Shown here: piece by piece, positions 2,637 to 38,290 of the stretch | How positions within the stretch are numbered: the first letter of the stretch is position 1 | How the letters are laid out: each line of letters starts with the position of its first letter | Assembly: GCA_964430475.1 (NCBI GenBank) | Contig: CAYSEQ010000002.1 | Coordinates: forward strand, 7,706-71,705 | DNA length: 64,000 bases | Source of the DNA: an uncultured Gammaproteobacteria bacterium | GTDB taxonomy: Bacteria; Patescibacteriota; Microgenomatia; UBA8517 | Direction: 5' to 3' | Notes under the pieces: model-generated | Seen by the model: only the letters and a program-made list of their open reading frames with translations | Databases searched by the model: none | Told to the model about the DNA's origin: nothing | Translations under genes and position numbers: made by a program

Positions 2637-2819
2637 TTGAGGTATTCTAGATTATGGAAGAGCAAAAAGACGAAAGCCTTCAACAATGAACTTATCGATG
2701 ATCTTCTCTTCTACAGTACACAAAGACCACATAATTCCCTAGGCAATCAGGAACCAATGAGAGCTGTAGTAGAATATTTTAAGAAGTCTAATATGTATTG
2801 GACCAATACATGGGGTTGA
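2637..2819 (+). pseudogene. IS transposase C-terminal fragment (end of a DDE integrase core, …YSTQRPHNSLG…)
   Basis: 60-aa ORF matching only the extreme C-terminus of IS3/IS481-type transposases. No upstream catalytic region. Confidence 0.6.
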
Positions 2820-2925
2820 CTGGAAACTCCAATTCAGCTCCTATCAAAATAGGAGGATATCTAGTTGTAATATTCAATATCCTAAATGAAAACAAAACAA
2901 GAAAAGAGAGGAGGTGACAAAAAGA

Positions 2926-3117
2926 ATGGGTGTTGAGAATCCTTCAATTGAAGTGGGTATTGAGCGAAATTCTAAAGTAAAAGCTGAACTGACTCAGCGC
3001 TCAAAAATTGATTTAGTCGAAGCAAAAGATCCCCTAATAGAAGCCAACGGATTTAACGGAACATGTAGTAATAGTGGCAATGGTTGTACAGGATCTTGTA
3101 ACCACTCATCGAAATAA
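2926..3117 (+). CDS. TOMM/LAP precursor peptide: ~45-aa leader plus Cys/Ser/Thr/Gly-rich core (…NGFNGTCSNSGNGCTGSCNHSSK)
   Basis: Small ORF 65 bp upstream of the YcaO gene. Strong SD (GGAGGTGA) 9 nt before the ATG at 2926; the ORF track starts at an in-frame GTG at 2914. The C-terminal 22 aa are 70% C/S/T/G/N. Confidence 0.7.
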   Translation: MGVENPSIEVGIERNSKVKAELTQRSKIDLVEAKDPLIEANGFNGTCSNSGNGCTGSCNHSSK

Positions 3118-3182
3118 AAAACTCTGCCACTAGTAGTAATAAAAGGCATGCGTAGATAATTCCGTCAGGAGGTGATGTCTTT

Positions 3183-4526
3183 ATGGATAGACTTATTCTC
3201 TCTTGGGAGAAAGAACTTGATAATCACCAACTGTTAAAGAATATAAATAATCTCATAAACGATAAGTATATTGTTAAAAATTTTAGTAAATCTCCGAGAT
3301 ATTATGATGAACCAAAGCTATACCAATATTCAGTACAAATTGCGGATACAAGATATAAGTCAGATGCAGATAGAGCTGCTGGTTATAGCGGGGGCGCCTC
3401 TTTTGATGAGAGCAAGGCAATAATTAAAGCTGTTTGTGAAGCAGTAGAAAGGTATTGTCTTGCAATCTATAAAGAAAAAGATCTCATCAGAGCATCTTAC
3501 AGTAAAATAAAAAACAGAAGTATTCCCCTAAAAAACATTATTTCTTTTTCCGCTACCCAGTTGAAAGCGAAAAGTCTATCCAGTTGTAAATATACTGATA
3601 AAACAAATTTTTTCTGGGCAAATGGTAAATCCATATTTGACAATAAGCCAGTTTTAATTCCAGCACAACTAATTTTCGTTCCATATAATTTCAAAAAAGA
3701 GAAAATAATTCGATTGCCAATAAGTACTGGTGCAGCATCTGGTACTTCTTTTACAGGAGCTTTATTGCGGGGAATCTTAGAAATAATTGAGAGAGATGCC
3801 TTTATGATCCATTACTTATCTAATGTTTGTGGAGAGCTTATTGATTTTTCCGACAATGATCGACTTTTAAGCATTAAAAATTATTTTAAAAAATATAGAT
3901 TGGATTTATATTTAATAAATCTACCTACAGACCTAAAAATTTATACATTTTTAACCTTAATTATCGATAAGACAGGTGTGGGTCCAGCCGTCTCAGCGGG
4001 TTTAAAAGCTGGTCTTGATTCACTTGAAACAGCTATTGGCTCCATAGAAGAAGGATGGCATTCAAGACCTTGGATAAGAGACGAGCTTAACAAAAAGCCT
4101 GATTTAAATAAGATTATTTCTGAGGGAAAAACTTTGCATGATATTAAAAAAAGAGGGCTATTTTGGTCTTCAATAGAAATGATAAAGTATGTCGATCCCT
4201 GGATAAATAATAAACGAGTTATAAGATTTAACAAGTTACGTTCTCTTTCTAAAGGTAAGCTCATAAGTGATCTGCATTATATTTTAAGTCTTCTGAGATC
4301 AAAGGGACATAATGTCTATTATGTTGATATAACGAGACCCGAAGTAGAGAAATACAGATTTAAAGTTTTGAAGGCGGTAATCCCTTCTTTACATCCACTA
4401 TATCTGGATGAACCATACCCATATTTAGGAGGTAATCGTATTTATCAATTACCTGTAGGGCTAGGCTACAAAGAAAATGCGTTGACAGAATCGGAACTTA
4501 ATCGGACGCCCCATTTCTTTTTATGA
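3183..4526 (+). CDS. YcaO-domain cyclodehydratase (TOMM D-protein type)
   Basis: Canonical YcaO ATP-binding motif …SGGASFDESKAIIKAVCEAVERYC…. Pro-rich C-terminal motif (…LHPLYLDEPYPY…). SD AGGAGGTGA upstream. Confidence 0.85.
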   Translation: MDRLILSWEKELDNHQLLKNINNLINDKYIVKNFSKSPRYYDEPKLYQYSVQIADTRYKSDADRAAGYSGGASFDESKAIIKAVCEAVERYCLAIYKEKDLIRASYSKIKNRSIPLKNIISFSATQLKAKSLSSCKYTDKTNFFWANGKSIFDNKPVLIPAQLIFVPYNFKKEKIIRLPISTGAASGTSFTGALLRGILEIIERDAFMIHYLSNVCGELIDFSDNDRLLSIKNYFKKYRLDLYLINLPTDLKIYTFLTLIIDKTGVGPAVSAGLKAGLDSLETAIGSIEEGWHSRPWIRDELNKKPDLNKIISEGKTLHDIKKRGLFWSSIEMIKYVDPWINNKRVIRFNKLRSLSKGKLISDLHYILSLLRSKGHNVYYVDITRPEVEKYRFKVLKAVIPSLHPLYLDEPYPYLGGNRIYQLPVGLGYKENALTESELNRTPHFFL

Positions 4527-5263
4527 AGAATCAGAGTAAGTATTATTTTTACAAATTTCATGAAGCTTCAAGTATAAAAAAAGCTAAAAGGTTGCCCTCC
4601 CGCGATAAATGGCCGGAGTCTTGGAAGAGAATTTATTTTAAGGGATATCCTAGATTTGAAAGAATTTATCTGAATAAATCTGCCTGGTTTAATAAAAATT
4701 ATGATTTGATTAACACAATTCTTGAGCGCAGAAGTGTAAGAGAATCTAACTTACCAATGTTTTCCAAGGATGATTTATCTCTGCTTTTATTAGGCGGTGC
4801 TATTACGAAAACTGACTCTAATGTTTTTTATGACTCTTATAGATCGTATCCTTCTGCTGGTGCAAGATACCCTTGTGAAATTTATATTTTTTTAAATAAG
4901 GTTAAAAATTTGAAGGGCGGTCTATATCACTACCATGTCAGGACTCATTCTCTGGAATACCTCTGGCCTATAAATTCCGAAGAAATAAAGAGATGCTTTC
5001 CTAATCAAAATTTCGTAACAAGAAGTAAGGCAATTGTTATAATTACAGCCATTATGAGCAGAAATATTAGTAAATATTCAGAACGTGGCTATAGATTTGC
5101 TTTGTTGGAAGCTGGGCATATAGGCCAAAATGTTTGCCTTATTGCTACCGCTATGGGTATGAGTGCATGTCCAATAGGGGGGTTTCATGACAAAAATCTA
5201 GCAGATTTGATTGACATCGACTCTAATGAAGAGCTGCCTTTATATTGCGTTTCAATTTTATGA
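4523..5263 (+). CDS. SagB-type FMN-dependent dehydrogenase (nitroreductase superfamily; TOMM B protein)
   Basis: N-terminal RRSVRES and the diagnostic …YPSAGARYPCEIY… motif of SagB-like azoline oxidases. 4-nt overlap with the YcaO gene (translational coupling). Confidence 0.8.
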   Translation: MKNQSKYYFYKFHEASSIKKAKRLPSRDKWPESWKRIYFKGYPRFERIYLNKSAWFNKNYDLINTILERRSVRESNLPMFSKDDLSLLLLGGAITKTDSNVFYDSYRSYPSAGARYPCEIYIFLNKVKNLKGGLYHYHVRTHSLEYLWPINSEEIKRCFPNQNFVTRSKAIVIITAIMSRNISKYSERGYRFALLEAGHIGQNVCLIATAMGMSACPIGGFHDKNLADLIDIDSNEELPLYCVSIL

Positions 5264-5285
5264 TAACCTTATGAGAGAAAGAGAT

Positions 5286-7006
5286 ATGCCTAAACCCATA
5301 GAAAAAAAACGACGCATTATGGGGTTTTTGCAACGAACCTTTATCTTTCAAGAGGGGGGAAGGAGTTACTAAGAGAAGCTACATTCTCTATTTATCCTGG
5401 TAGAAAGGTCGCTTTAATTGGGAGAAATGGTAGTGGCAAGACTACCTTGTTAGAGACGATCAACGCTGTAGCAAGGGGTCAAGAGTTACCTGAAGGGGTA
5501 GATGTACGTGGTTCCCTCACAATTCCAAGAAGGACAAAGACTGGCTATCTTCCACAAAGTGTACAAGTAAGTTTCTCCGGAACTGTAAAAGAGTACTTAG
5601 ATTTTTGCGCGGAAGAGGTATCACAAGTTTTCAACAGATATCATGAACTTGAAGAAAAATTAGCTAAGAGAACAGATAATGAGGTCATAAATGAGTTTGG
5701 GGAAATTTTGGGGAAAATGGCCGATCTTAATGCATGGGATTTACCTAAGAATAGAAGATTGATTTTAGAAGGTCTGGGATTATCTGATGAATATTTAAGC
5801 CGAAATATTAAAGAGATTAGTGGAGGGGAATCTACCAAAGTTGCTCTTGCAGGAATTCTATTATCTTCGCCAAACCTAATACTTCTTGACGAGCCGACAA
5901 ATAATTTGGATCCCAGAAGTTTAATCTTTCTTGAGAATTGGATCAGAAATGATATCTCGTCTTTGCTTCTGGTTTCTCATGATAGAGAGTTTTTGGATAG
6001 AACTATAGATGAGATTATTGAGATAGATGAAGCAACCAGAAAAGTTTTGCTTTTTGGAGGCAACTATTCTTTTTATTTTCAAAAAAAGAAAGAAAATTAT
6101 GAGGCTCAACTAAGACAGTTTGAGGAGCAACAAAGAAAAAGAAGGCAGCTCGAAGCAGAAGCTGATAGATTGAGATCGGAAGCCAGAAGATTGGAATCAA
6201 TTTCTACAAACGCCTTCTACAGAGCAAAAGGTGCGGGTTTGGCGAGGCGAGCAAGAGTTCAATTAGAACGGATAGAAAGAGAGCTTACTCAAATTCCTAA
6301 ACCCGAGCCACCTAAAAAACCCACAATCACTGTATTTGAGACAGAAGTAAGACAAGATTTATTAGTGCAAGCAGAAGATTTATCATTCTCTTATACAAAT
6401 AATAAAAAACTGCTCTCTGAAGTGTCATTTATTGTCCATGGTGGCGAAAGAATAGGTATAATTGGGCCTAATGGTTCGGGGAAAACTACTTTGCTAAAGC
6501 TTCTTTTGGGTGAAATACAGCCCACATCAGGCAACGTAACTTTAGCAAGAAGTGCAGTTGTTGGTTATCTTCCCCAAGCAACGACAATTAGCAACCCAAA
6601 AGAGAACGTTTTAGATTTTATTAGGAAAAGAGCATCTCTTTCAGAAGATGATGCTAAAACGTTACTTGGTAAAGTGCTTTTCACCGATCCATCTCATCTC
6701 CGAGTTGGAGATTTTAGTGCCGGCGAGCTGAGAAGAGTTGAACTCGTAGGACTATTTGCTTCTAAACCAAACATCATTTTCCTTGATGAGCCGACTAATC
6801 ATTTAGATATTTATACGATAGAAATGTTAGAAGATGCATTAGATAATTACAAGGGAGGTTTAATAGCAGTATCTCATGATGAGAGATTCCTTAAAAATAT
6901 ACGTCCAAATAGAATAGTTATATTCGAAGGAGAGGGGAATTTGGTAAGCCGGGTTGTCAAGAAGTCCGACGATGTTTCAAAAATTTTTGAAGAAGTGTTC
7001 AGTTGA
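5286..7006 (+). CDS. ABC-F family ATPase: two ABC domains, no TM, charged inter-domain linker. The reading frame is interrupted near the 5' end at an A8 run
   Basis: Walker A GRNGSGKTT (domain 1) and GPNGSGKTT (domain 2). Signatures LSGGE and FSAGE. Arg/Glu-rich linker RQFEEQQRKRRQLEAEADRLRSEARRLE. The ATG at 5286 (after SD GAGAGAAAGAGAT) reads MPKPIEKK, then the frame switches at AAAAAAAA (5302-5309) into …TTHYGVFATNLYLSRGGKELL…. Confidence 0.75.
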
Positions 7007-7424
7007 TATCAAAATGAACTAATCAACACAAGATAGCCTTTAAAGTTATCTAACAAAAGACAAGGTTAGTATTAAGACATTTCTCTAATATGGATACTTA
7101 TACACTCTATAAGCCTAAGCAATCGATAAAGTCAGCAGTTGGAGCTTCCTGGTAGAAAAATTCAGAAGAAGAGAAACATCGCTGACACTCCTATCAAACC
7201 ATGTCAGCAAGAAGGTAGAAAATTCCACCTTCCTCGGAAATTACTCCTAGAGAAGTAATCTCTCATATCGGTTTACTAAGGGTATAAACCCAATATGGGT
7301 GATATTAATTAATATACTAGCACAAAAGAGGTTGGCATTTTGGGAGTTTAACAACATTGTAAAAGACTCAAAGTAATTCACATATTTAAAATAAAAGAGT
7401 TAAAAACACCACAAGATAATCCAA

Positions 7425-7603
7425 TGGATGCAGGGTTCAAGAGGACCGTTAAAGAAGGATTCGTGGAAGTCAATGAGTATTTTGAAGAACACCTGGTAGA
7501 TGCTGATTTAACCAAAGCCAACAATGAACTTAGAGGATGGCTTGTATTCTACAACTTCACCAGACCCCATCAAGCACTTAACTATCTAACACCAATAAGG
7601 TAA
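7425..7603 (+). pseudogene. IS transposase fragment, C-terminal end of an integrase core (…FYNFTRPHQALNYLTP…)
   Basis: Short ORF with only a terminal rve-domain motif. Confidence 0.6.
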
Positions 7604-7699
7604 TACTAGCCAGAGAGTGTCCGTGATGTCCCCTTCTGGTACATCTACTATCTTTTTATGCAAGAAAAAGATTAAGGATGCTAAGGGTTCTTTACTTGG

Positions 7700-8180
7700 C
7701 CTTATCAATAAGTCCCGTAGGTCTTACAATACAAGAAGAATGTATGTTGCCAACCTGTTTTTGAGTTTATCAAAGGCTTAAGAGAAAAATACCCAAGATT
7801 AGGTAAGGAGAAAATCAAAATTCTTCTTGATCAATACTGTCAAGAAAACAATCTCAAAACTATTTCTGTCTCCAAAATTGGCAGGATTATCAAAAAGAAC
7901 AACTGGTTTTTATACCTTGGAAAAAGAACTAAACAGACTGTTAAACAAAACAAGAAAAGAGTCTTTGGTTGGTTAGGTTGATAACCCAGGAGATTTATTC
8001 CAGATAGATACCCTGATTAGATTTGAGCATAAAGTCAAAAGATACATCCTCACTGCCTGTAATGTTGTTTCTAAGTTTTCTTTCGCCTTTGCCTATAAAT
8101 CTCATAGCTCTAAACAACCCTCTGATTTTAAGGTCTATGCTAGGATGATTTTGGAATTTTACAGGAAGAAATTGGATTAA
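7700..8180 (+). pseudogene. Decayed IS transposase N-terminal HTH region and start of the DDE domain, broken over several frames
   Basis: Fragments YPRLGKEKIKILLDQYCQENNLKTISVSKIGRIIKKN and IPGDLFQIDTLIRFEHKVKRYILTACNVVSKFSFAFAYKS lie in different frames with stops between them. Confidence 0.55.
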
Positions 8181-8352
8181 CTTAAAGTCCGACTTCTGAA
8201 GGGAGGATATTTAGCATAAATTCTTCGGGTTTTTCAGTAAAGATTATCCGTTTTCCTAAAGCCTGTGCATAACCAATCTCGATTAAGGCAGACGCTCCTA
8301 CATAGCCATCTTTATCACAGACAATTAGAGCATCGGACCCCTCTATGGAATC

Positions 8353-9445
8353 CTAAAGATACCTTTCAAGCTCAAGGGATGTTGACCTTTCTTCACCTCC
8401 AAAAACTATGAACTCTTCGCCTGGGTTTTTGGGTTCTGTAAATCTTGGGCTCAATACTTCAACCCCTTTATCGTCCAACTGTTTTCTAATTTTCAAAATA
8501 TAATCTAAGTACTTACGGAAGCTTCCCCTTATTGTTACATGGCGAAACTCTTGTCTTGCAACTCCATCTATGAGGTTTGAGTTAGAGGGAATTATTGTCT
8601 CAATTTTATACTTCTGACAAATTGCTTGAGCTATAGCACTACAAGCCCTTGCTCCATGCATCCATCTGGGGTTATCGGGCATAAGTGCCTCTAATTCGGA
8701 CAGGGTTACTTTCGAAAATATTTCATTATTTCTTTTAGCAAAGTCATCAAAAGAAATAAGACTTGGGTGGTCTTTGTCGTTAAATAATTTATTATCTTGT
8801 GGTTTATATGAAGCAATTCGCATATAAGTTAGTTCGCCGCCAGAGTAGAAAGCTAATTTGACTTTATTTTGCAAAGAGGGGAGTTTTTTCTTTATAAATT
8901 CAACTGTTTTTTCGAGACTAAATTTGGAAACTTCTTCATTTATTTCCTGAAATTCAGTCAAAATTGTTCCGACCCCTATTTCAATGTTTTTCGTCTCAAT
9001 CGCCTCTTTTCCTAACATCACAACAAGTTCAGTTGAACTACCGCCAATATTAATTAGAAGAAGTGGATCTTTGACATTTTCGTATTTTCCGACAAGTGTA
9101 ACTTGGAGATAGAAGCTTTCAAGGTCATGCTCTATGATATTAAAGAAAAGGCCAGTTTTCTGGAAAAATTCATCGATAAATTCACGTCTTGTCTTGGGAG
9201 AAAGTTTGCGATAAAGGGCAATCGCATAAAGCTTAATTAGTGTTTTAGGATATTTGTTTTTGACCTCAGAGGTTAATTCATAAAGCTGTTTTTTGTTTTC
9301 TTCTGAAATTCCCTTGTCAGGGTCAAAATTGTCTTTGAATGGAATAGAGCGGCTTAGCAGAAGTTTGGGAGAATTAGAAGAATTCTATAAATCTTAACGG
9401 TAGATGAGCCTATATCAACAAGGATTTTTTATTGTTTCGTTGCAT
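8353..9445 (-). pseudogene. ppx: Exopolyphosphatase / guanosine pentaphosphate phosphohydrolase (Ppx/GppA family) with two apparent frameshifts in the 5' region
   Basis: Minus-strand translation gives MQRNNKK | ILVDIGSSTVKIYRILLILP | KLLLSRSIPFKD…LLLINIGGSSTELVVMLGKEAIE… (Ppx/GppA ATPase motifs). The frame changes at an AAAAAA run (~9425) and at CCCAAAC (~9365). Confidence 0.6.
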
Positions 9446-9881
9446 CTTGTGCTTTACCATCCACAAATGTGTACATATACACATTTGCACAACTAATATA
9501 GTTTATAATTTTGTCAAGATTACTAAATTATGAAAGTCTTTTTTACCTGTTCTACAAAATCAATAGATAAGTATGCTAGTTTTTATAAAGCTACGAGGGA
9601 CAAAATCCTGAAACTTGGATACCAGCTAAGAAGTGATTGGATAGATTATTCCATCAATGTTGCTCAGAGAGGAATACCCGATATCCCCTCCAATACTCTA
9701 TATAAGGAATGAGTGCTATTGTTGTCGCCGATGTAGTAGTAGTTGACGCTACGGTAAGAAGTATGTCTCTTGATCGCCAACTCACATATGCTCTCCAAAA
9801 AGGCAAACCCGCTCTTGTCTTGAGACATAGTTATTTTGTATGTCTTGATTGGAAGTTATTCATCAAATAAAGCTTTTGAAT

Positions 9882-10016
9882 ATGAATAAGTCAGATAGAT
9901 ATAAAGTTTTCGCACTTTTTATTGTGTTTATTTTATTTTTTGGTAGTACAGTGGTGTTTTGGAATAGGTTTGCAAGAGGCAAAAGACTGTTTGATTTTAT
10001 CCATATTTTAAAGTAA
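9882..10016 (+). CDS. Small hydrophobic protein (44 aa, one TM)
   Basis: ORF MNKSDRYKVFALFIVFILFFGSTVVFWNRFARGKRLFDFIHILK. No homology inferred. Confidence 0.2.
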   Translation: MNKSDRYKVFALFIVFILFFGSTVVFWNRFARGKRLFDFIHILK

Positions 10017-10019
10017 TCT

Positions 10020-10920
10020 CTCAATGGTTATGTATCTAGGATTCCCGCCGAGGTTACTAAAACTTCTTTATCAACCCCATCGTCTAAGGAAAATCTGACT
10101 CAGGATTATTTTAGTTTTGTCAGGTTTCCATTAGCTTTATCTCCAGACGGGAATTTTGTTGCATCTTTGGGGATTGTTGCAGTTAAAGGATCAGGTGTCT
10201 TGGTGCTCCGTGTTAATCCTTTGTGGTCAAAGGATAGTGTAAAATATAAAGATATTCCAGATGGCAGACCTTTGTGGCAGTTGCACTATCACCCTGAAAT
10301 TTACAAGTACGATTTGGACTTATACATAAAAGACCTAAGTTATTTTCCGAATGCTGAATCGCTAGGACGATGTATTTAGTCGCAGGATGGACGATACTTA
10401 GCTTTATTGACATTTGATAAGCTGCTTTTATTTAGCTTTGACTATCAAAAAGATAAGTCTTGTTGTAATGAAGAGGAAGTTTTGCCAGAAAGAAATATGT
10501 TAACTTTGGTTGGTAGTCAAGAGATTACTATTCCTTTTGAACTTGACAATAAACCAATTAGAGATTCTCGCATTTTTTTACAGCTGACTCGCGCAAGCTT
10601 TATTTAGGCTTGGTTGATTATTCAGGTAACAATTGGTTGTTGGTTTATGATTTGGTAGCAAAAAAAGCTATCAATTCAAGCTTAACTACTGCTATTGAGG
10701 GGATTGACATTCATAATATCTATCCAGTGTCTAGCTCTTCTGGATTTGCCTACTGGCAACGAAGGTATGATGATGATATTTTTAGGTGGAATTTGGTCTT
10801 GAAAACAAATGTTAGAACACTAACTTACCGCATTCCCATAAAAGGGATAGATGCAGTTGGAAAACTGAAGCTGTATCCTGGGCTTGATAAAGTGTGTTTT
10901 GAATTGGGGGATATCTAACT
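10020..10920 (+). pseudogene. Probable decayed gene: PD40/WD40-like beta-propeller fragments split over three frames
   Basis: Consecutive ORFs in different frames (10167-10379, 10407-10607, 10610-10918). A …LSPDGNFVASLG… PD40-like repeat. Low coding density. Confidence 0.3.
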
Positions 10921-11184
10921 CTATGTTATACTCTATTTATCAATTGAGTACCATGAACGAAATCGCTTCTGGCAGTGGGGTAGATTCATGTTGTGGTGAT
11001 TGGTTGGATAACCGAGGTTGATAATTAAGGAGTCATCAAAGGTATGACAGGACTTTATTAATTGGTTTATTTTAGATATTGCAACAGGCGAGGAGAGATT
11101 TGTCCGGGCAAGCTAGGTCGAAAAGCTAATAAAGATACTTTGGGTTTAGGATCTTTGCATAAATTTTGGAATTATAAAATTCCT

Positions 11185-36829: not shown

Positions 36830-38290
36830 ATGAAAAGTAAAATTCTTTCCCTTTTTCTTGTAATCTTTGGGGCGTTTTTTTTAGCCAAGCCCGCTCAGGC
36901 TCAATCTCTTCTTTTGAGAACATTTACTTCCTATCCCAAAAAATCTCCAGACGAGGTTATTGTTAAATTCCGCAAGGTGCCAAAAGCCGTCTCCATAAGA
37001 GATTTTGCCTCAAGATATAATATCCCTCTTACGAGTATCACGGAGTATGAGAACTTTGTGACAGTGAAAATTCCAAAAGGCCTTGACACCCAGAACTATT
37101 CTCGGTTTTTGTCAAAGGATCTTGAAGTGGAGTATGTTGAGCCAAACTATATTGCTTATGCTTTTAATGTTCCCAATGACCCTTACTACAGATATCAGTG
37201 GCATTTGGATAATCCTGTTTTCGGAGGCGTATCTGCGGAAGAAGCCTGGGATTTGGCAAATGGCGAAGGAGTAGTGGTTGCGGTAGTTGACACAGGAGTT
37301 GCTTACGAGAATTATACCCAGAGTCGGTCTCGACGCTATGAGAAAGCACCTGACCTTGCCGGAACCTGTTTTGTACAAGGGTACGATTTTGTCAATAAAG
37401 ACACCCATCCCAACGACGACAGTGGCCACGGAACCCATATCACCGGAACGATTGCCCAAACAACTGATAATAATTTAGGTGTTGCCGGTCTTGCCTATAA
37501 GTCTTGCATTATGCCGGTAAAAGTTTTGGGTGCTGATGGTTCGGGTACTTACGCAAATGTTGCAGCAGGTATCCGTTACGCAGTAGATAAAGGTGCTAAG
37601 GTAATAAATTTAAGCCTTGGCGGTCCATCTTCTTCGCAAACCCTACTTGATGCAGTGAAGTATGCTGCCGAGAAAGGAAGCTTGGTGGTGGCAGCAGCTG
37701 GAAATGAGGCAAAAGAGACTCTTTCGTATCCGGCTGCCTACAACGATTATGTGGTGGCAGTGGGCGCAACAAGATACGACGAGACGCTAGCCTTTTACTC
37801 AAGCTATGGAGAGGGTTTGGATTTGGTAGCACCAGGAGGGGATTTAAATGTTGACCAAAACGCCGATGGCTACAAAGATGGAATACTTCAGCAAACCTTT
37901 GGTTCAAATCCCAGGGATTGGGGTTACTACTTCTATCAAGGGACCTCAATGGCAACTCCCCATGTTTCGGCAACCGCTGCGCTTTTAGCCTCTAAAGGTG
38001 TAAGCGATATTTCGCAAATAAAGAATTTTCTTTACCAAAGCGCCCAGGATTTAGGAACTTCCGGATACGATAAGTACTTTGGTTGGGGTTTGCTTGATAC
38101 CCGAAAGGCACTTGAGCTAGCAATGGGAAATTCAGGGTTGACTCCTACTCCTATCCCAAATCCCACTCAGACACCAACCCCGACACCAACTCCTACTCCG
38201 ACTTTAACCCCCACGCCAACTCCCACGCCTACCCCAACAGAGAAGCCTTGGTGGTGTAGATACTTCCCGACTCATCCCTCCTGCCAGTGA
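36830..38290 (+). CDS. Secreted subtilisin-like serine protease (S8) with N-terminal propeptide and C-terminal Pro/Thr tail
   Basis: Asp VAVVDTGV, His HGTHITGTIA, Ser GTSMATPHVS. Signal peptide. TPTPTPTPTPT… tail. Confidence 0.85.
   Translation: MKSKILSLFLVIFGAFFLAKPAQAQSLLLRTFTSYPKKSPDEVIVKFRKVPKAVSIRDFASRYNIPLTSITEYENFVTVKIPKGLDTQNYSRFLSKDLEVEYVEPNYIAYAFNVPNDPYYRYQWHLDNPVFGGVSAEEAWDLANGEGVVVAVVDTGVAYENYTQSRSRRYEKAPDLAGTCFVQGYDFVNKDTHPNDDSGHGTHITGTIAQTTDNNLGVAGLAYKSCIMPVKVLGADGSGTYANVAAGIRYAVDKGAKVINLSLGGPSSSQTLLDAVKYAAEKGSLVVAAAGNEAKETLSYPAAYNDYVVAVGATRYDETLAFYSSYGEGLDLVAPGGDLNVDQNADGYKDGILQQTFGSNPRDWGYYFYQGTSMATPHVSATAALLASKGVSDISQIKNFLYQSAQDLGTSGYDKYFGWGLLDTRKALELAMGNSGLTPTPIPNPTQTPTPTPTPTPTLTPTPTPTPTPTEKPWWCRYFPTHPSCQ

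What the first reader, a model, noticed from the sequence alone, without database searches (positions are those of the whole stretch)
2926..3117. Candidate precursor: long acidic/lysine-rich leader and a core with 3 Cys, 5 Ser and 1 Thr in 22 residues
The core NGFNGTCSNSGNGCTGSCNHSSK has Gly or Asn before most Cys/Ser/Thr. Gly-preceded heterocyclisable residues are the preferred context for YcaO cyclodehydratases. The ORF has the strongest SD in the neighbourhood (GGAGGTGA). Up to nine azol(in)es could form. Nothing else in the window resembles it, so this is a single-copy precursor.
Basis: partly seen in the sequence, partly recalled or inferred. Interest (0 to 1): 0.6.

Follow-up and report, generated by a model that had tools for sequence, protein, structure and literature searches.

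The report
Azole-peptide precursor with ribosome-protection gene
The small gene is very probably a real precursor of a thiazole/oxazole-modified peptide, and it belongs to a conserved four-gene cassette of ultra-small (Patescibacteria/CPR-type) bacteria whose fourth gene is a ribosome-protection-type ABC-F ATPase, which suggests an undescribed ribosome-targeting peptide.

Summary
The ORF at 2926-3117 (63 aa) is real. It sits 65 nt upstream of a co-directional SagD-family YcaO (3183-4526), a SagB-type dehydrogenase (4523-5263) and an ABC-F ATPase (5271-7006).

I found the same precursor-YcaO-SagB-ABC-F order in 9 further distinct loci from metagenomes and MAGs, with unrelated flanking genes. 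A tenth short contig shows only the precursor and the start of YcaO. All share the C-terminal core C-x-N-S-[GA]-[ND]-x-C-[TG]-G-S-C-N-[HR]-[SC]-S, and most share a leader motif DLxEA. In the core codons, synonymous sites are saturated (pS 0.87) while the amino acids are almost fixed (pN 0.15).

Two features go beyond that interpretation. The YcaO is a single domain with no E1-like/RRE partner in the cassette. The ABC-F passes NCBIfam's "ribosomal protection-like" cutoff, and both relatives picked from the ABC-F side lie after a YcaO-SagB pair.

Azole-peptide (LAP) clusters in CPR genomes were already reported in 2020. I found no description of this precursor family or of the ABC-F linkage. Chemistry and target remain inferred.

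The parts
2909..2916 (+). Shine-Dalgarno GGAGGTGA of the precursor gene
   Evidence: Read directly. GGAGGTG-type or G-rich (GGGGGTG) sites lie at the same distance upstream of the precursor ORFs in L001, L003, L005, L006 and L007.
2926..3117 (+). Precursor peptide gene (63 aa plus stop)
   Evidence: An identical peptide is on record as P0001. Homologues sit upstream of YcaO in 10 further distinct loci. No Pfam or NCBIfam family matches it.
3010..3024 (+). Leader motif D29-L-V-E-A33 (family consensus DLxEA), the candidate recognition element
   Evidence: Alignment A2 and P0243. Exact DLxEA occurs in 7 of the 12 distinct family peptides, with looser forms in L019 (NLKDA), L001 (SMCEA) and P0244 (ELADA). 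L008 has the related EDLEDG. A recognition function is inferred, not tested.
3061..3114 (+). Predicted core T46-K63 (TCSNSGNGCTGSCNHSSK). The block conserved across the family starts at C47 (nt 3064).
   Evidence: Invariant columns are C47, N49, S50, C54, G56, S57, C58, N59 and S62. Core codons give pS 0.87 against pN 0.15. The exact leader/core cleavage site is not determined.
3183..4526 (+). Single-domain YcaO cyclodehydratase (447 aa, SagD family), with its own GGAGGTGA at 3168-3175
   Evidence: PF02624 at 1.1e-45. TIGR03604 at 240.9 bits, above the 219.25 cutoff. It aligns only to residues ~408-775 of LynD/TruD/MusD. The AF2 model has pLDDT 96.4, and its best PDB fold match is the LynD YcaO domain with TMq 0.79.
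4523..5263 (+). SagB-type FMN dehydrogenase (246 aa); its start overlaps the YcaO stop (ATGA)
   Evidence: PF00881 at 9e-20. TIGR03605 at 136.8 bits, above the 78.4 cutoff. A Lys-Tyr motif (ISKYSERGYRF) is conserved in 8 of the 9 family loci checked.
5271..7006 (+). ABC-F ATPase, ribosomal-protection-like. In the window it is split by a 1-nt frame change, so only 5447-7006 reads as one ORF.
   Evidence: The independent assembly L022 is 99.9% identical and encodes an intact 578-aa protein. The intact protein scores 406 bits on NF000355 against a cutoff of 380.
5302..5309 (+). A8 homopolymer where the ABC-F reading frame breaks (A9 in L022)
2637..2819 (+). Integrase (rve_3) C-terminal remnant upstream of the cassette
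   Evidence: Weak Pfam hit, E 0.0095. Its translation ...NNELIDDLLFYSTQRPHNSLG... resembles the downstream fragment.
7424..7603 (+). Integrase (rve_3) C-terminal remnant downstream of the cassette
   Evidence: PF13683 at 31.8 bits, above the 26.5 cutoff. The same gene is called rve_3 in L022.

Best explanation
The ORF 2926-3117 encodes the precursor (A) of a linear azole-containing peptide. It is co-transcribed with a single-domain YcaO cyclodehydratase (D), a SagB-type FMN dehydrogenase (B) and an ABC-F ATPase.

**Shown here**
- The gene order and its conservation.
- Purifying selection on the peptide core.
- Family membership of the three enzymes.
- Absence of an E1-like/RRE partner in the cassette.

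**Inferred from the established chemistry of these families**
- YcaO uses ATP to cyclodehydrate conserved Cys/Ser/Thr residues of the core to azolines. The likeliest sites are C47, S50, C54, (T55), S57, C58 and S62.
- SagB oxidises the azolines to thiazoles and oxazoles.
- A protease encoded elsewhere removes the leader.
- Because there is no RRE protein, the YcaO itself must recognise the substrate, probably through the leader motif DLxEA and/or the invariant core.

**Further inference (about 0.45 on its own)**
- The mature peptide binds the bacterial ribosome.
- The co-encoded ABC-F protects the producer's own ribosomes by target protection, which would replace the export pump used by klebsazolicin and phazolicin producers.
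For: **Cassette and enzyme families**
- YcaO is SagD-family and SagB is above its cutoff.
- The YcaO stop and SagB start overlap.
- There is no terminator-like hairpin between the precursor and YcaO (z +1.3; no + strand terminator).

**Conservation**
- The order precursor-YcaO-SagB-ABC-F recurs in L001, L003, L005, L006, L007, L019, L021 and L026, and in a sister form with other precursor sequences in L023/L024/L025. The flanking genes differ: GDH, FtsW/L21, Asn-synthase/PqqD, polyprenyl synthase, YdjM.
- L013, a short contig, shows only the precursor and the start of YcaO.
- The core is nearly invariant, while its synonymous sites are saturated (pS 0.87, pN 0.15).

**YcaO**
- It aligns with azoline-forming heterocyclases (LynD, TruD, MusD) in sequence and fold, covering their YcaO halves only.

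**ABC-F**
- All five full-length family members tested score 390-407 bits on NF000355 'ribosomal protection-like ABC-F' (cutoff 380). They are far below the cutoffs for EttA, Uup, PRK10636 and PRK15064.
- Both relatives chosen from the ABC-F side (P0138, P0142) lie directly after a YcaO-SagB pair.
- The interdomain linker is about 15 residues longer than in E. coli YheS.

**Precedents**
- Two LAPs, klebsazolicin and phazolicin, block the ribosomal exit tunnel (PMC6783444, PMC7136475).
- The microcin B17 cluster carries a target-protection gene, mcbG, and the review uses it as an indicator of the target (PMC7136475).
Against: - No product, transcript or activity data exist for any member.
- The feature usually needed for substrate recognition by azoline-forming YcaOs, an E1-like or ThiF-like partner, is absent from the cassette. 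No ThiF-, E1- or PqqD-like domain was found in any ORF of 250 aa or more in the 64-kb window.
- The C-terminus is PHFFL instead of the canonical PxPxP.
- There is no leader peptidase and no exporter in the cassette.
- The ABC-F's best solved relative by sequence is the housekeeping YheS. Its linker is about 13 residues shorter than that of ExpZ/VmlR, so classing it as a resistance factor rests on one curated HMM and on synteny.
- In the window as assembled the ABC-F is frameshifted.
- One orphan copy of the core (L012) has no YcaO within the 750 nt downstream of it.
Confidence: 0.8

Rival explanations
1. The peptide is a true azole-peptide precursor, but the ABC-F is an ordinary translation factor. 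It could be housekeeping, or it could assist translation of some cassette product. Under this reading the product's target is not the ribosome (membrane, gyrase, signalling or another target).
For: - The best PDB sequence match of the ABC-F is YheS at 4.7e-77, and EttA is also close.
- The linker is shorter than in VmlR/ExpZ.
- NF000355 is passed by only 10-27 bits.
- CPR genomes are small, so this might be their only ABC-F. No second ABC-F lies in the 64-kb window.
Against: - The ABC-F stays attached to YcaO-SagB while all flanking genes change.
- Start/stop overlaps or gaps of a few nucleotides indicate an operon.
- Sister CPR YcaO-SagB clades carry peptidases at that position and no ABC-F.
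- Scores against the housekeeping models are far below their cutoffs.
Confidence: 0.3
2. The YcaO installs a different backbone modification on this peptide (thioamide or amidine) rather than azol(in)es.
For: - YcaO enzymes also make thioamides and amidines (PMC7136475).
- The enzyme lacks a partner, like the bottromycin YcaOs (PMC7136475).
- The PxPxP motif is degenerate.
- There is a secondary NCBIfam hit to the McrA-thioamidation YcaO, 93 bits against a cutoff of 365.
Against: - TIGR03604 (azole-forming SagD family) is above its cutoff.
- A SagB azoline dehydrogenase with the Lys-Tyr motif is always adjacent.
- No gene beyond the four conserved ones (such as a TfuA partner) recurs in the cassette.
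- The conserved core residues are Cys and Ser.
- The nearest solved relatives are azoline-forming heterocyclases.
Confidence: 0.07
3. The small ORF is not an enzyme substrate. It could be an unmodified Cys/His-rich (metal-binding) micro-protein, or a regulatory upstream ORF for the YcaO operon, with YcaO/SagB acting on another protein such as a ribosomal component.
For: - No known precursor family matches the peptide.
- The orphan copy L012 exists without an adjacent YcaO.
- JGI annotates the YcaO homologues as 'ribosomal protein S12 methylthiotransferase accessory factor'.
Against: - The amino-acid sequence of the core, not merely the presence of an ORF, is under strong purifying selection.
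- Related CPR YcaO-SagB loci carry different but always Cys/Ser-rich small ORFs with a related leader motif, which is the pattern expected of RiPP substrates.
- The JGI name is an automatic label derived from E. coli YcaO.
Confidence: 0.04

Closest known systems
LAP clusters of candidate-phyla-radiation bacteria (Sharrar et al. 2020, mBio, PMC7298704)
   Same: - Patescibacteria/CPR-type hosts.
- Precursor next to a YcaO, with a nitroreductase-type dehydrogenase.
- No C/F partner gene listed.
- That paper counted 110 such clusters in 93 CPR genomes, 89 of them with the nitroreductase.
- My loci L008-L010 (YcaO-SagB plus an S9 or M16 peptidase) are of that type.
   Different: - The published example has a peptidase as third gene and an 84-aa precursor.
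- In this cassette the third enzyme gene is an ABC-F and no peptidase is present.
- The precursor family (core C-x-N-S-G-N-G-C-T-G-S-C-N-H-S-S-K) is not mentioned there.
- None of these clusters has been characterised experimentally.
Klebsazolicin and phazolicin (ribosome exit-tunnel LAPs; PMC6783444, PMC7136475, PMC10125368)
   Same: - Short Cys/Ser/Asn/Gly-rich cores processed by YcaO plus a dehydrogenase.
- The klebsazolicin core SQSPGNCASCSNSASANCTGGLG shares CSNS, a 3-4 residue spacer, and CTG with the window core CSNSGNGCTGS.
- The proposed target is the same.
   Different: - Their clusters have an E1-like C protein and an export pump (KlpE/PhzE) that gives immunity. This cassette has neither, and has an ABC-F instead.
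- The X-X-(S/T)-P motif needed for klebsazolicin's essential amidine is absent here.
- The sequence resemblance lies in a low-complexity peptide. It is a lead, not evidence of homology.
Microcin B17 cluster with McbG (PMC7136475)
   Same: A LAP cluster that carries a target-protection immunity protein (McbG protects gyrase). The logic of reading the target from the protection gene is the same.
   Different: - The protection protein there is a pentapeptide-repeat DNA mimic, and the target is gyrase.
- McbBCD is a three-component synthetase with an E1-like McbB.
- McbD is only a distant fold match to this YcaO (TMq 0.55).
Partner-independent ('standalone') YcaOs of bottromycin biosynthesis (PMC7136475, PMC8442711)
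   Same: A YcaO that acts on a ribosomal peptide without an E1-like or ThiF-like partner. One of them makes a thiazoline.
   Different: - Bottromycin uses a follower peptide, two divergent YcaOs and many tailoring enzymes.
- Here there is one SagD-family YcaO with a classical SagB partner and an N-terminal leader.
ABC-F resistance proteins in antibiotic producers (TlrC/CarA/OleB/SrmB, NCBIfam NF000171) and ARE ABC-Fs (VmlR/ExpZ, PoxtA, Msr, Vga, Lsa)
   Same: - Two ABC domains joined by a linker, with no membrane domain.
- Encoded inside the biosynthetic cluster of the compound (the macrolide-producer cases are from my own knowledge).
- NF000355 is passed.
   Different: - Those clusters make polyketide-type or other small-molecule antibiotics. 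I found no paper in the library that links an ABC-F to a YcaO/RiPP cluster.
- Scores on each specific ARE model are far below their cutoffs.

Membership tests
Linear azol(in)e-containing peptide (LAP/TOMM) biosynthetic cluster | YcaO-domain cyclodehydratase of the azoline-forming (SagD) type | tested here: met
   - TIGR03604 at 240.9 bits against a cutoff of 219.25, and PF02624 at 1.1e-45.
- The best solved relatives are LynD, TruD and MusD.
Linear azol(in)e-containing peptide (LAP/TOMM) biosynthetic cluster | FMN-dependent azoline dehydrogenase (SagB/McbC type) | tested here: met
   - TIGR03605 at 136.8 bits against a cutoff of 78.4.
- The Lys-Tyr motif is conserved in 8 of 9 loci checked.
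- The role of that motif is recalled from the literature on TOMM dehydrogenases and from PMC8442711.
Linear azol(in)e-containing peptide (LAP/TOMM) biosynthetic cluster | E1-like (C) or ThiF-like (F) partner with an RRE, separate or fused to YcaO ('in most cases', PMC7136475) | tested here: not met
   - The YcaO is 447 aa and covers only the YcaO half of LynD.
- The conserved cassette has four genes.
- No ThiF-, E1- or PqqD-like domain occurs in any ORF of 250 aa or more in the window.
- A partner elsewhere in the genome cannot be excluded.
Linear azol(in)e-containing peptide (LAP/TOMM) biosynthetic cluster | Adjacent small precursor with a Cys/Ser/Thr-rich C-terminal core | tested here: met
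Linear azol(in)e-containing peptide (LAP/TOMM) biosynthetic cluster | C-terminal PxPxP motif of azoline-forming YcaOs (PMC12338566) | tested here: not met
   - The window protein ends in NRTPHFFL.
- All nine ABC-F-linked YcaOs of the CxNSGNGCTGSCN-core clade end in PHFFL (the sister L023/L024 loci end in LQPFL).
- Most CPR relatives end in PHPFL.
- A full PxPxP occurs in only 9 of 120.
Linear azol(in)e-containing peptide (LAP/TOMM) biosynthetic cluster | Azol(in)e rings in the mature product | not testable with these tools
   Needs mass spectrometry. Predicted masses are given under next steps.
Ribosomal-protection (ARE-type) ABC-F proteins | Two ABC nucleotide-binding domains joined by a linker, no transmembrane domain, catalytic motifs intact | tested here: met
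   - PF00005 twice plus PF12848.
- Walker A sequences GRNGSGKTT and GPNGSGKTT, and Walker B sequences LLDEPT and FLDEPT, are read in the sequence.
Ribosomal-protection (ARE-type) ABC-F proteins | Curated NCBIfam model NF000355 'ribosomal protection-like ABC-F' above its cutoff | tested here: met
   - The intact protein of the same organism (L022) scores 406 bits against a cutoff of 380. Four relatives score 390-407.
- The truncated window ORF alone scores 360.9, below the cutoff.
Ribosomal-protection (ARE-type) ABC-F proteins | Extended interdomain linker (antibiotic-resistance domain) reaching the PTC | tested here: inconclusive
   The linker is about 15 residues longer than in YheS and about 13 shorter than in ExpZ/VmlR, judged from the HMMER alignments.
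Ribosomal-protection (ARE-type) ABC-F proteins | Confers resistance to a ribosome-targeting compound | not testable with these tools
   Needs the purified peptide and expression of the ABC-F.
Klebsazolicin family | X-X-(S/T)-P motif at the start of the core for the N-terminal amidine (PMC6783444), plus an E1-like KlpC and the exporter KlpE | tested here: not met
   There is no Ser-Pro or Thr-Pro in the window peptide, and no C protein or pump in the cassette.
Described TOMM/RiPP precursor families (Pfam, NCBIfam) | Match to a curated precursor model | tested here: not met
   - No family matches at E <= 0.01 in Pfam or NCBIfam.
- No PDB chain matches.

The most novel reading that the evidence does not exclude
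A lineage of Patescibacteria/CPR-type bacteria makes a compact, sequence-conserved thiazole/oxazole peptide using a YcaO that needs no RRE partner. The peptide targets the ribosome, and the producer protects itself with a dedicated ABC-F rather than an export pump. This would be the first RiPP cluster with ABC-F target protection, and a candidate weapon or host-control molecule of episymbiotic ultra-small bacteria.
Probability: 0.4. Interest if true: 0.75.

Novelty: new variant of a known kind. Interest (0 to 1): 0.55.

Why it matters
**New compound and target hypothesis**
- If the inference holds, the cassette gives a four-gene route (about 4.1 kb) to a new ribosome-binding azole peptide from organisms that cannot be cultured.
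- The target hypothesis is readable from the cluster itself, because an ABC-F takes the place of a pump.

**Enzymology**
- It offers a natural test case for how an azoline-forming YcaO recognises its substrate without an RRE partner.
- A minimal heterocyclase of that kind would be useful for peptide engineering.

**Genome mining**
- Searches that require a partner protein exclude these clusters. The survey in PMC7136475 says it did so.

Tried and rejected
**Searches that gave little**
- A word-indexed search of 5.8 billion proteins with the precursor returned only the precursor itself. The family was found instead through YcaO neighbours, a degenerate DNA pattern and a full HMMER scan.
Of the 10 hits of the second pattern, 4 were chance matches, including in-frame stops and GC-rich DNA.
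- A PDB sequence search with the core gave nothing.
- Rfam and tRNA scans of the window gave nothing.

**Ideas rejected**
- An attenuator or terminator between the precursor and YcaO. The fold is no better than shuffled sequence (z +1.3) and no + strand terminator was found there.
- The ABC-F being a decayed pseudogene lacking its first Walker A. An independent assembly of the same organism has one more A and an intact gene.
- A second precursor in L026 upstream of P0243. The translation is unrelated.
- Hidden RRE or E1 domains in the YcaO. The confident AF2 model (pLDDT 96.4) is one YcaO domain.
- A partner elsewhere in the window. None was found among ORFs of 250 aa or more.

**Not obtainable**
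- Burkhart et al. 2017 (PMC5406272) was not held in the library.

Full report
**1. Observation**

The ORF is present as described: ATG at 2926, TAA at 3115-3117, 63 codons. Its sequence is MGVENPSIEVGIERNSKVKAELTQRSKIDLVEAKDPLIEANGFNGTCSNSGNGCTGSCNHSSK. GGAGGTGA lies at 2909-2916.

- The quoted 23-residue tail has 3 Cys, 5 Ser and 2 Thr.
- Only 4 of these 10 residues follow Gly or Asn.
- The YcaO gene carries the same GGAGGTGA at 3168-3175, so the precursor's SD is not uniquely the strongest.

No other ORF in the 64-kb window resembles it.

**2. Neighbourhood**

Three genes follow on the same strand.
- 3183-4526 is a YcaO protein. It matches PF02624 at 1.1e-45 and TIGR03604 (SagD family) at 240.9 bits against a cutoff of 219.25.
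- 4523-5263 is a SagB-type dehydrogenase. It matches TIGR03605 at 136.8 bits against a cutoff of 78.4, and its start overlaps the YcaO stop.
- An ABC-F ATPase follows.

SecA lies upstream. The 65-nt spacer between the precursor and YcaO shows no terminator-like structure.

As assembled, the ABC-F reads as one ORF only from 5447 and lacks its first Walker A. The missing N-terminus is present from ATG 5271 in the neighbouring frame, and the frame breaks at an A8 run (5302-5309). An independent Logan assembly of the same organism (L022) is 99.9% identical over 5273 nt. It has A9 there and an intact 578-aa ABC-F.

Integrase (rve_3) remnants flank the four genes at 2637-2819 and 7424-7603.

**3. 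A conserved family**

I found related loci by three independent routes.
- **Through the YcaO.** L001 (a Patescibacteria MAG), L003/L004, L005, L006 and L007 each have a small ORF directly upstream of the YcaO, then SagB, then a 573-586-aa ABC-F.
- **Through the core sequence.** A degenerate DNA pattern for the core, run against metagenome contigs, gave 10 hits. Six are real C-terminal cores (L012, L013, L016, L017, L019, L021) and four are chance matches. L016 is the same contig as L004, and L017 encodes the same peptide as L003, so these add four new peptides. A tblastn search confirmed YcaO, SagB and ABC-F downstream in L019 and L021, and the start of YcaO on the short contig L013.
- **Through a full peptide search.** A HMMER scan of 1.84 billion representative proteins with the peptide added P0243 and P0244. 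P0243 lies in a complete cassette, L026.

The peptides share two features:
- an almost invariant C-terminal block, C-x-N-S-[GA]-[ND]-x-C-[TG]-G-S-C-N-[HR]-[SC]-S-[KG];
- a leader motif DLxEA in most members.

The rest of the leader varies freely. L007 even carries an (SGGG)x8 spacer. The genes flanking the cassette differ from locus to locus, so the conserved unit is these four genes.

**4. The ORF is translated**

Across 11 distinct DNA versions of the 16 core codons, pS is 0.87 and pN is 0.15. The pN value is inflated by switches between the TCN and AGY serine codon families.

The comparisons that are free of selection bias are window against the YcaO-found loci. They give pN 0.00-0.21 with pS 0.8-1.2. 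This is strong purifying selection on the peptide sequence.

**5. The YcaO has no partner**

By sequence it aligns only with residues ~408-775 of the fused heterocyclases TruD, LynD and MusD.

An AlphaFold2 model built from 69 homologues is very confident (pLDDT 96.4, pTM 0.95). It superposes on the YcaO halves of LynD (TMq 0.79, TMt 0.49), MusD and TruD, then on archaeal YcaOs and McbD. No additional domain is present.

No ThiF-, E1- or PqqD-like domain occurs in any ORF of 250 aa or more in the window, and none is part of the conserved cassette.

The C-terminus is PHFFL in the nine YcaOs that go with this core. Most CPR relatives end in PHPFL, and only 9 of 120 have the canonical PxPxP (the motif is cited in PMC12338566).

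The SagB proteins keep a Lys-Tyr motif.

**6. The ABC-F**
- Five full-length family members score 390-407 bits on NCBIfam NF000355 'ribosomal protection-like ABC-F' (cutoff 380). They are far below the cutoffs of the EttA, Uup, PRK10636 and PRK15064 models.
- About 22 database proteins are at least 50% identical to it. Several sit on the same contigs as the YcaO homologues.
- Two picked blindly from the ABC-F side, P0138 and P0142, both lie immediately after a YcaO-SagB pair. Those loci have two different Ser/Cys-rich precursors upstream.
- The next tier, at 41-48% identity, comes from non-CPR phyla. JGI labels many of these 'macrolide transport system ATP-binding/permease protein'.
- Against solved structures the best sequence match is YheS, then ExpZ, EttA and PoxtA. 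The linker is about 15 residues longer than in YheS and about 13 shorter than in ExpZ.

**7. Wider context and literature**

More distant CPR YcaO-SagB pairs (36-47% identity) carry an M16 or S9 peptidase instead of the ABC-F. One of them, L011, has neither in the stretch examined. Where a candidate small ORF was found (L008-L010), its Cys-rich core differs but the leader motif is related (DAKEF, EDLED).

A rough neighbour-joining tree groups the ABC-F-linked loci that share this core. The S9 locus L008 is nested within that group, and the L023/L024 type is its sister. The tree has no support values.

Sharrar et al. 2020 (PMC7298704) already reported LAP clusters (YcaO, nitroreductase, peptidase) in 93 CPR genomes. 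The cluster type is therefore known, but only from sequence.

The mining survey in PMC7136475 explicitly left out clusters with standalone YcaOs. I found no paper in the library that links YcaO or RiPP clusters with an ABC-F.

**8. Mechanism**

*Shown:* the operon-like cassette, the selection on the peptide, the enzyme families, and the absence of a partner.

*Inferred from family chemistry:*
- ATP-dependent cyclodehydration at conserved Cys/Ser(/Thr) residues by YcaO;
- oxidation to azoles by SagB;
- leader removal by a protease that is not in the cassette;
- substrate recognition by the YcaO itself, through DLxEA and/or the invariant core.

*Inferred from the ABC-F, probability about 0.45:* the ribosome is the target, and the ABC-F protects the producer.

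Two precedents support that last step. Klebsazolicin and phazolicin plug the exit tunnel (PMC6783444, PMC7136475). McbG is a target-protection gene inside the microcin B17 cluster (PMC7136475).

The klebsazolicin core SQSPGNCASCSNSASANCTGGLG (PMC10125368) shares CSNS, a short spacer and CTG with the window core. Both peptides are low-complexity, and the X-X-(S/T)-P amidine motif is absent here. I treat the resemblance as a lead only.

**9. Verdict**

The cassette is a new variant of a known kind: a CPR-type LAP cluster with a previously undescribed, strongly conserved precursor family, no RRE partner, and an ABC-F in place of a peptidase or pump.

Open points:
- the orphan core copy L012, which has no YcaO within the 750 nt downstream of it;
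- the identity of the leader peptidase and the export route;
- the meaning of the A8/A9 difference;
- all of the chemistry and the target.

Noticed in passing
window 5302-5309 (within ABC-F gene 5271-7006): An A8 homopolymer breaks the ABC-F reading frame. An independent assembly of the same organism (L022) has A9 and an intact gene. A_AAA_AAA is also a classic -1 slippery heptamer. Assembly error, strain polymorphism and slippage cannot be told apart here.
   Followed up: partly
window 2637-2819, 7424-7603, ~7740-8160; repeats at 2890-2908 and 7943-7961: Integrase (rve_3) C-terminal fragments flank the four-gene cassette on the same strand. There is also a degraded transposase N-terminal part, and a 19-nt exact repeat AAACAAAACAAGAAAAGAG on both sides. 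Together these suggest past mobility or local decay.
   Followed up: partly
window 7000-11060: This 4-kb stretch has almost no long ORFs in an otherwise densely coding window. The only ORF of 200 aa or more is 8353-9021(-), 222 aa, with no Pfam family. There is no tRNA or Rfam match. It looks like a degraded insertion.
   Followed up: partly
L012 277-420 (VSSL01038433.1): An orphan ORF has the full conserved core (…ACDNSGNGCTGSCNHSSK) but a basic, unrelated leader. No YcaO lies within the 750 nt downstream.
   Followed up: partly
L005 1052-2646: A PqqD-like gene and an asparagine-synthase-like gene, the pair typical of lasso-peptide clusters, lie just upstream of the LAP cassette in this CPR-type contig.
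   Followed up: no
L007 3731-3970: The precursor carries eight SGGG repeats between the DLEEA leader motif and the conserved core. The distance between leader motif and core is therefore not fixed.
   Followed up: no
L023 2468-2995, L024 2429-2996: A sister ABC-F-linked clade has two different tandem precursors (…SSSNSSSCAACSHSGCHGNCR and …TSSASAQGSCGHTGSNSGR). Most of them carry a leader motif [AS]KE[FY][DE]; one L024 copy reads YKEYD.
   Followed up: partly
L008 6028-8285 and 8604-9275: In the related S9-peptidase locus the precursor lies downstream of the peptidase: METLEKDFTIEDLEDGSMLDTDNYLDITMDKCTYNCINACSQKCCKSKGVSEED. An ordinary ABC-transporter ATPase gene follows.
   Followed up: partly
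window 36830-38290: An S8 subtilase with a fervidolysin-like prodomain. It is the only protease in the window with a complete catalytic-domain match (an M23 protein at 29847-31055 matches only part of its domain). It is a speculative candidate for leader removal and lies 30 kb from the cassette.
   Followed up: no
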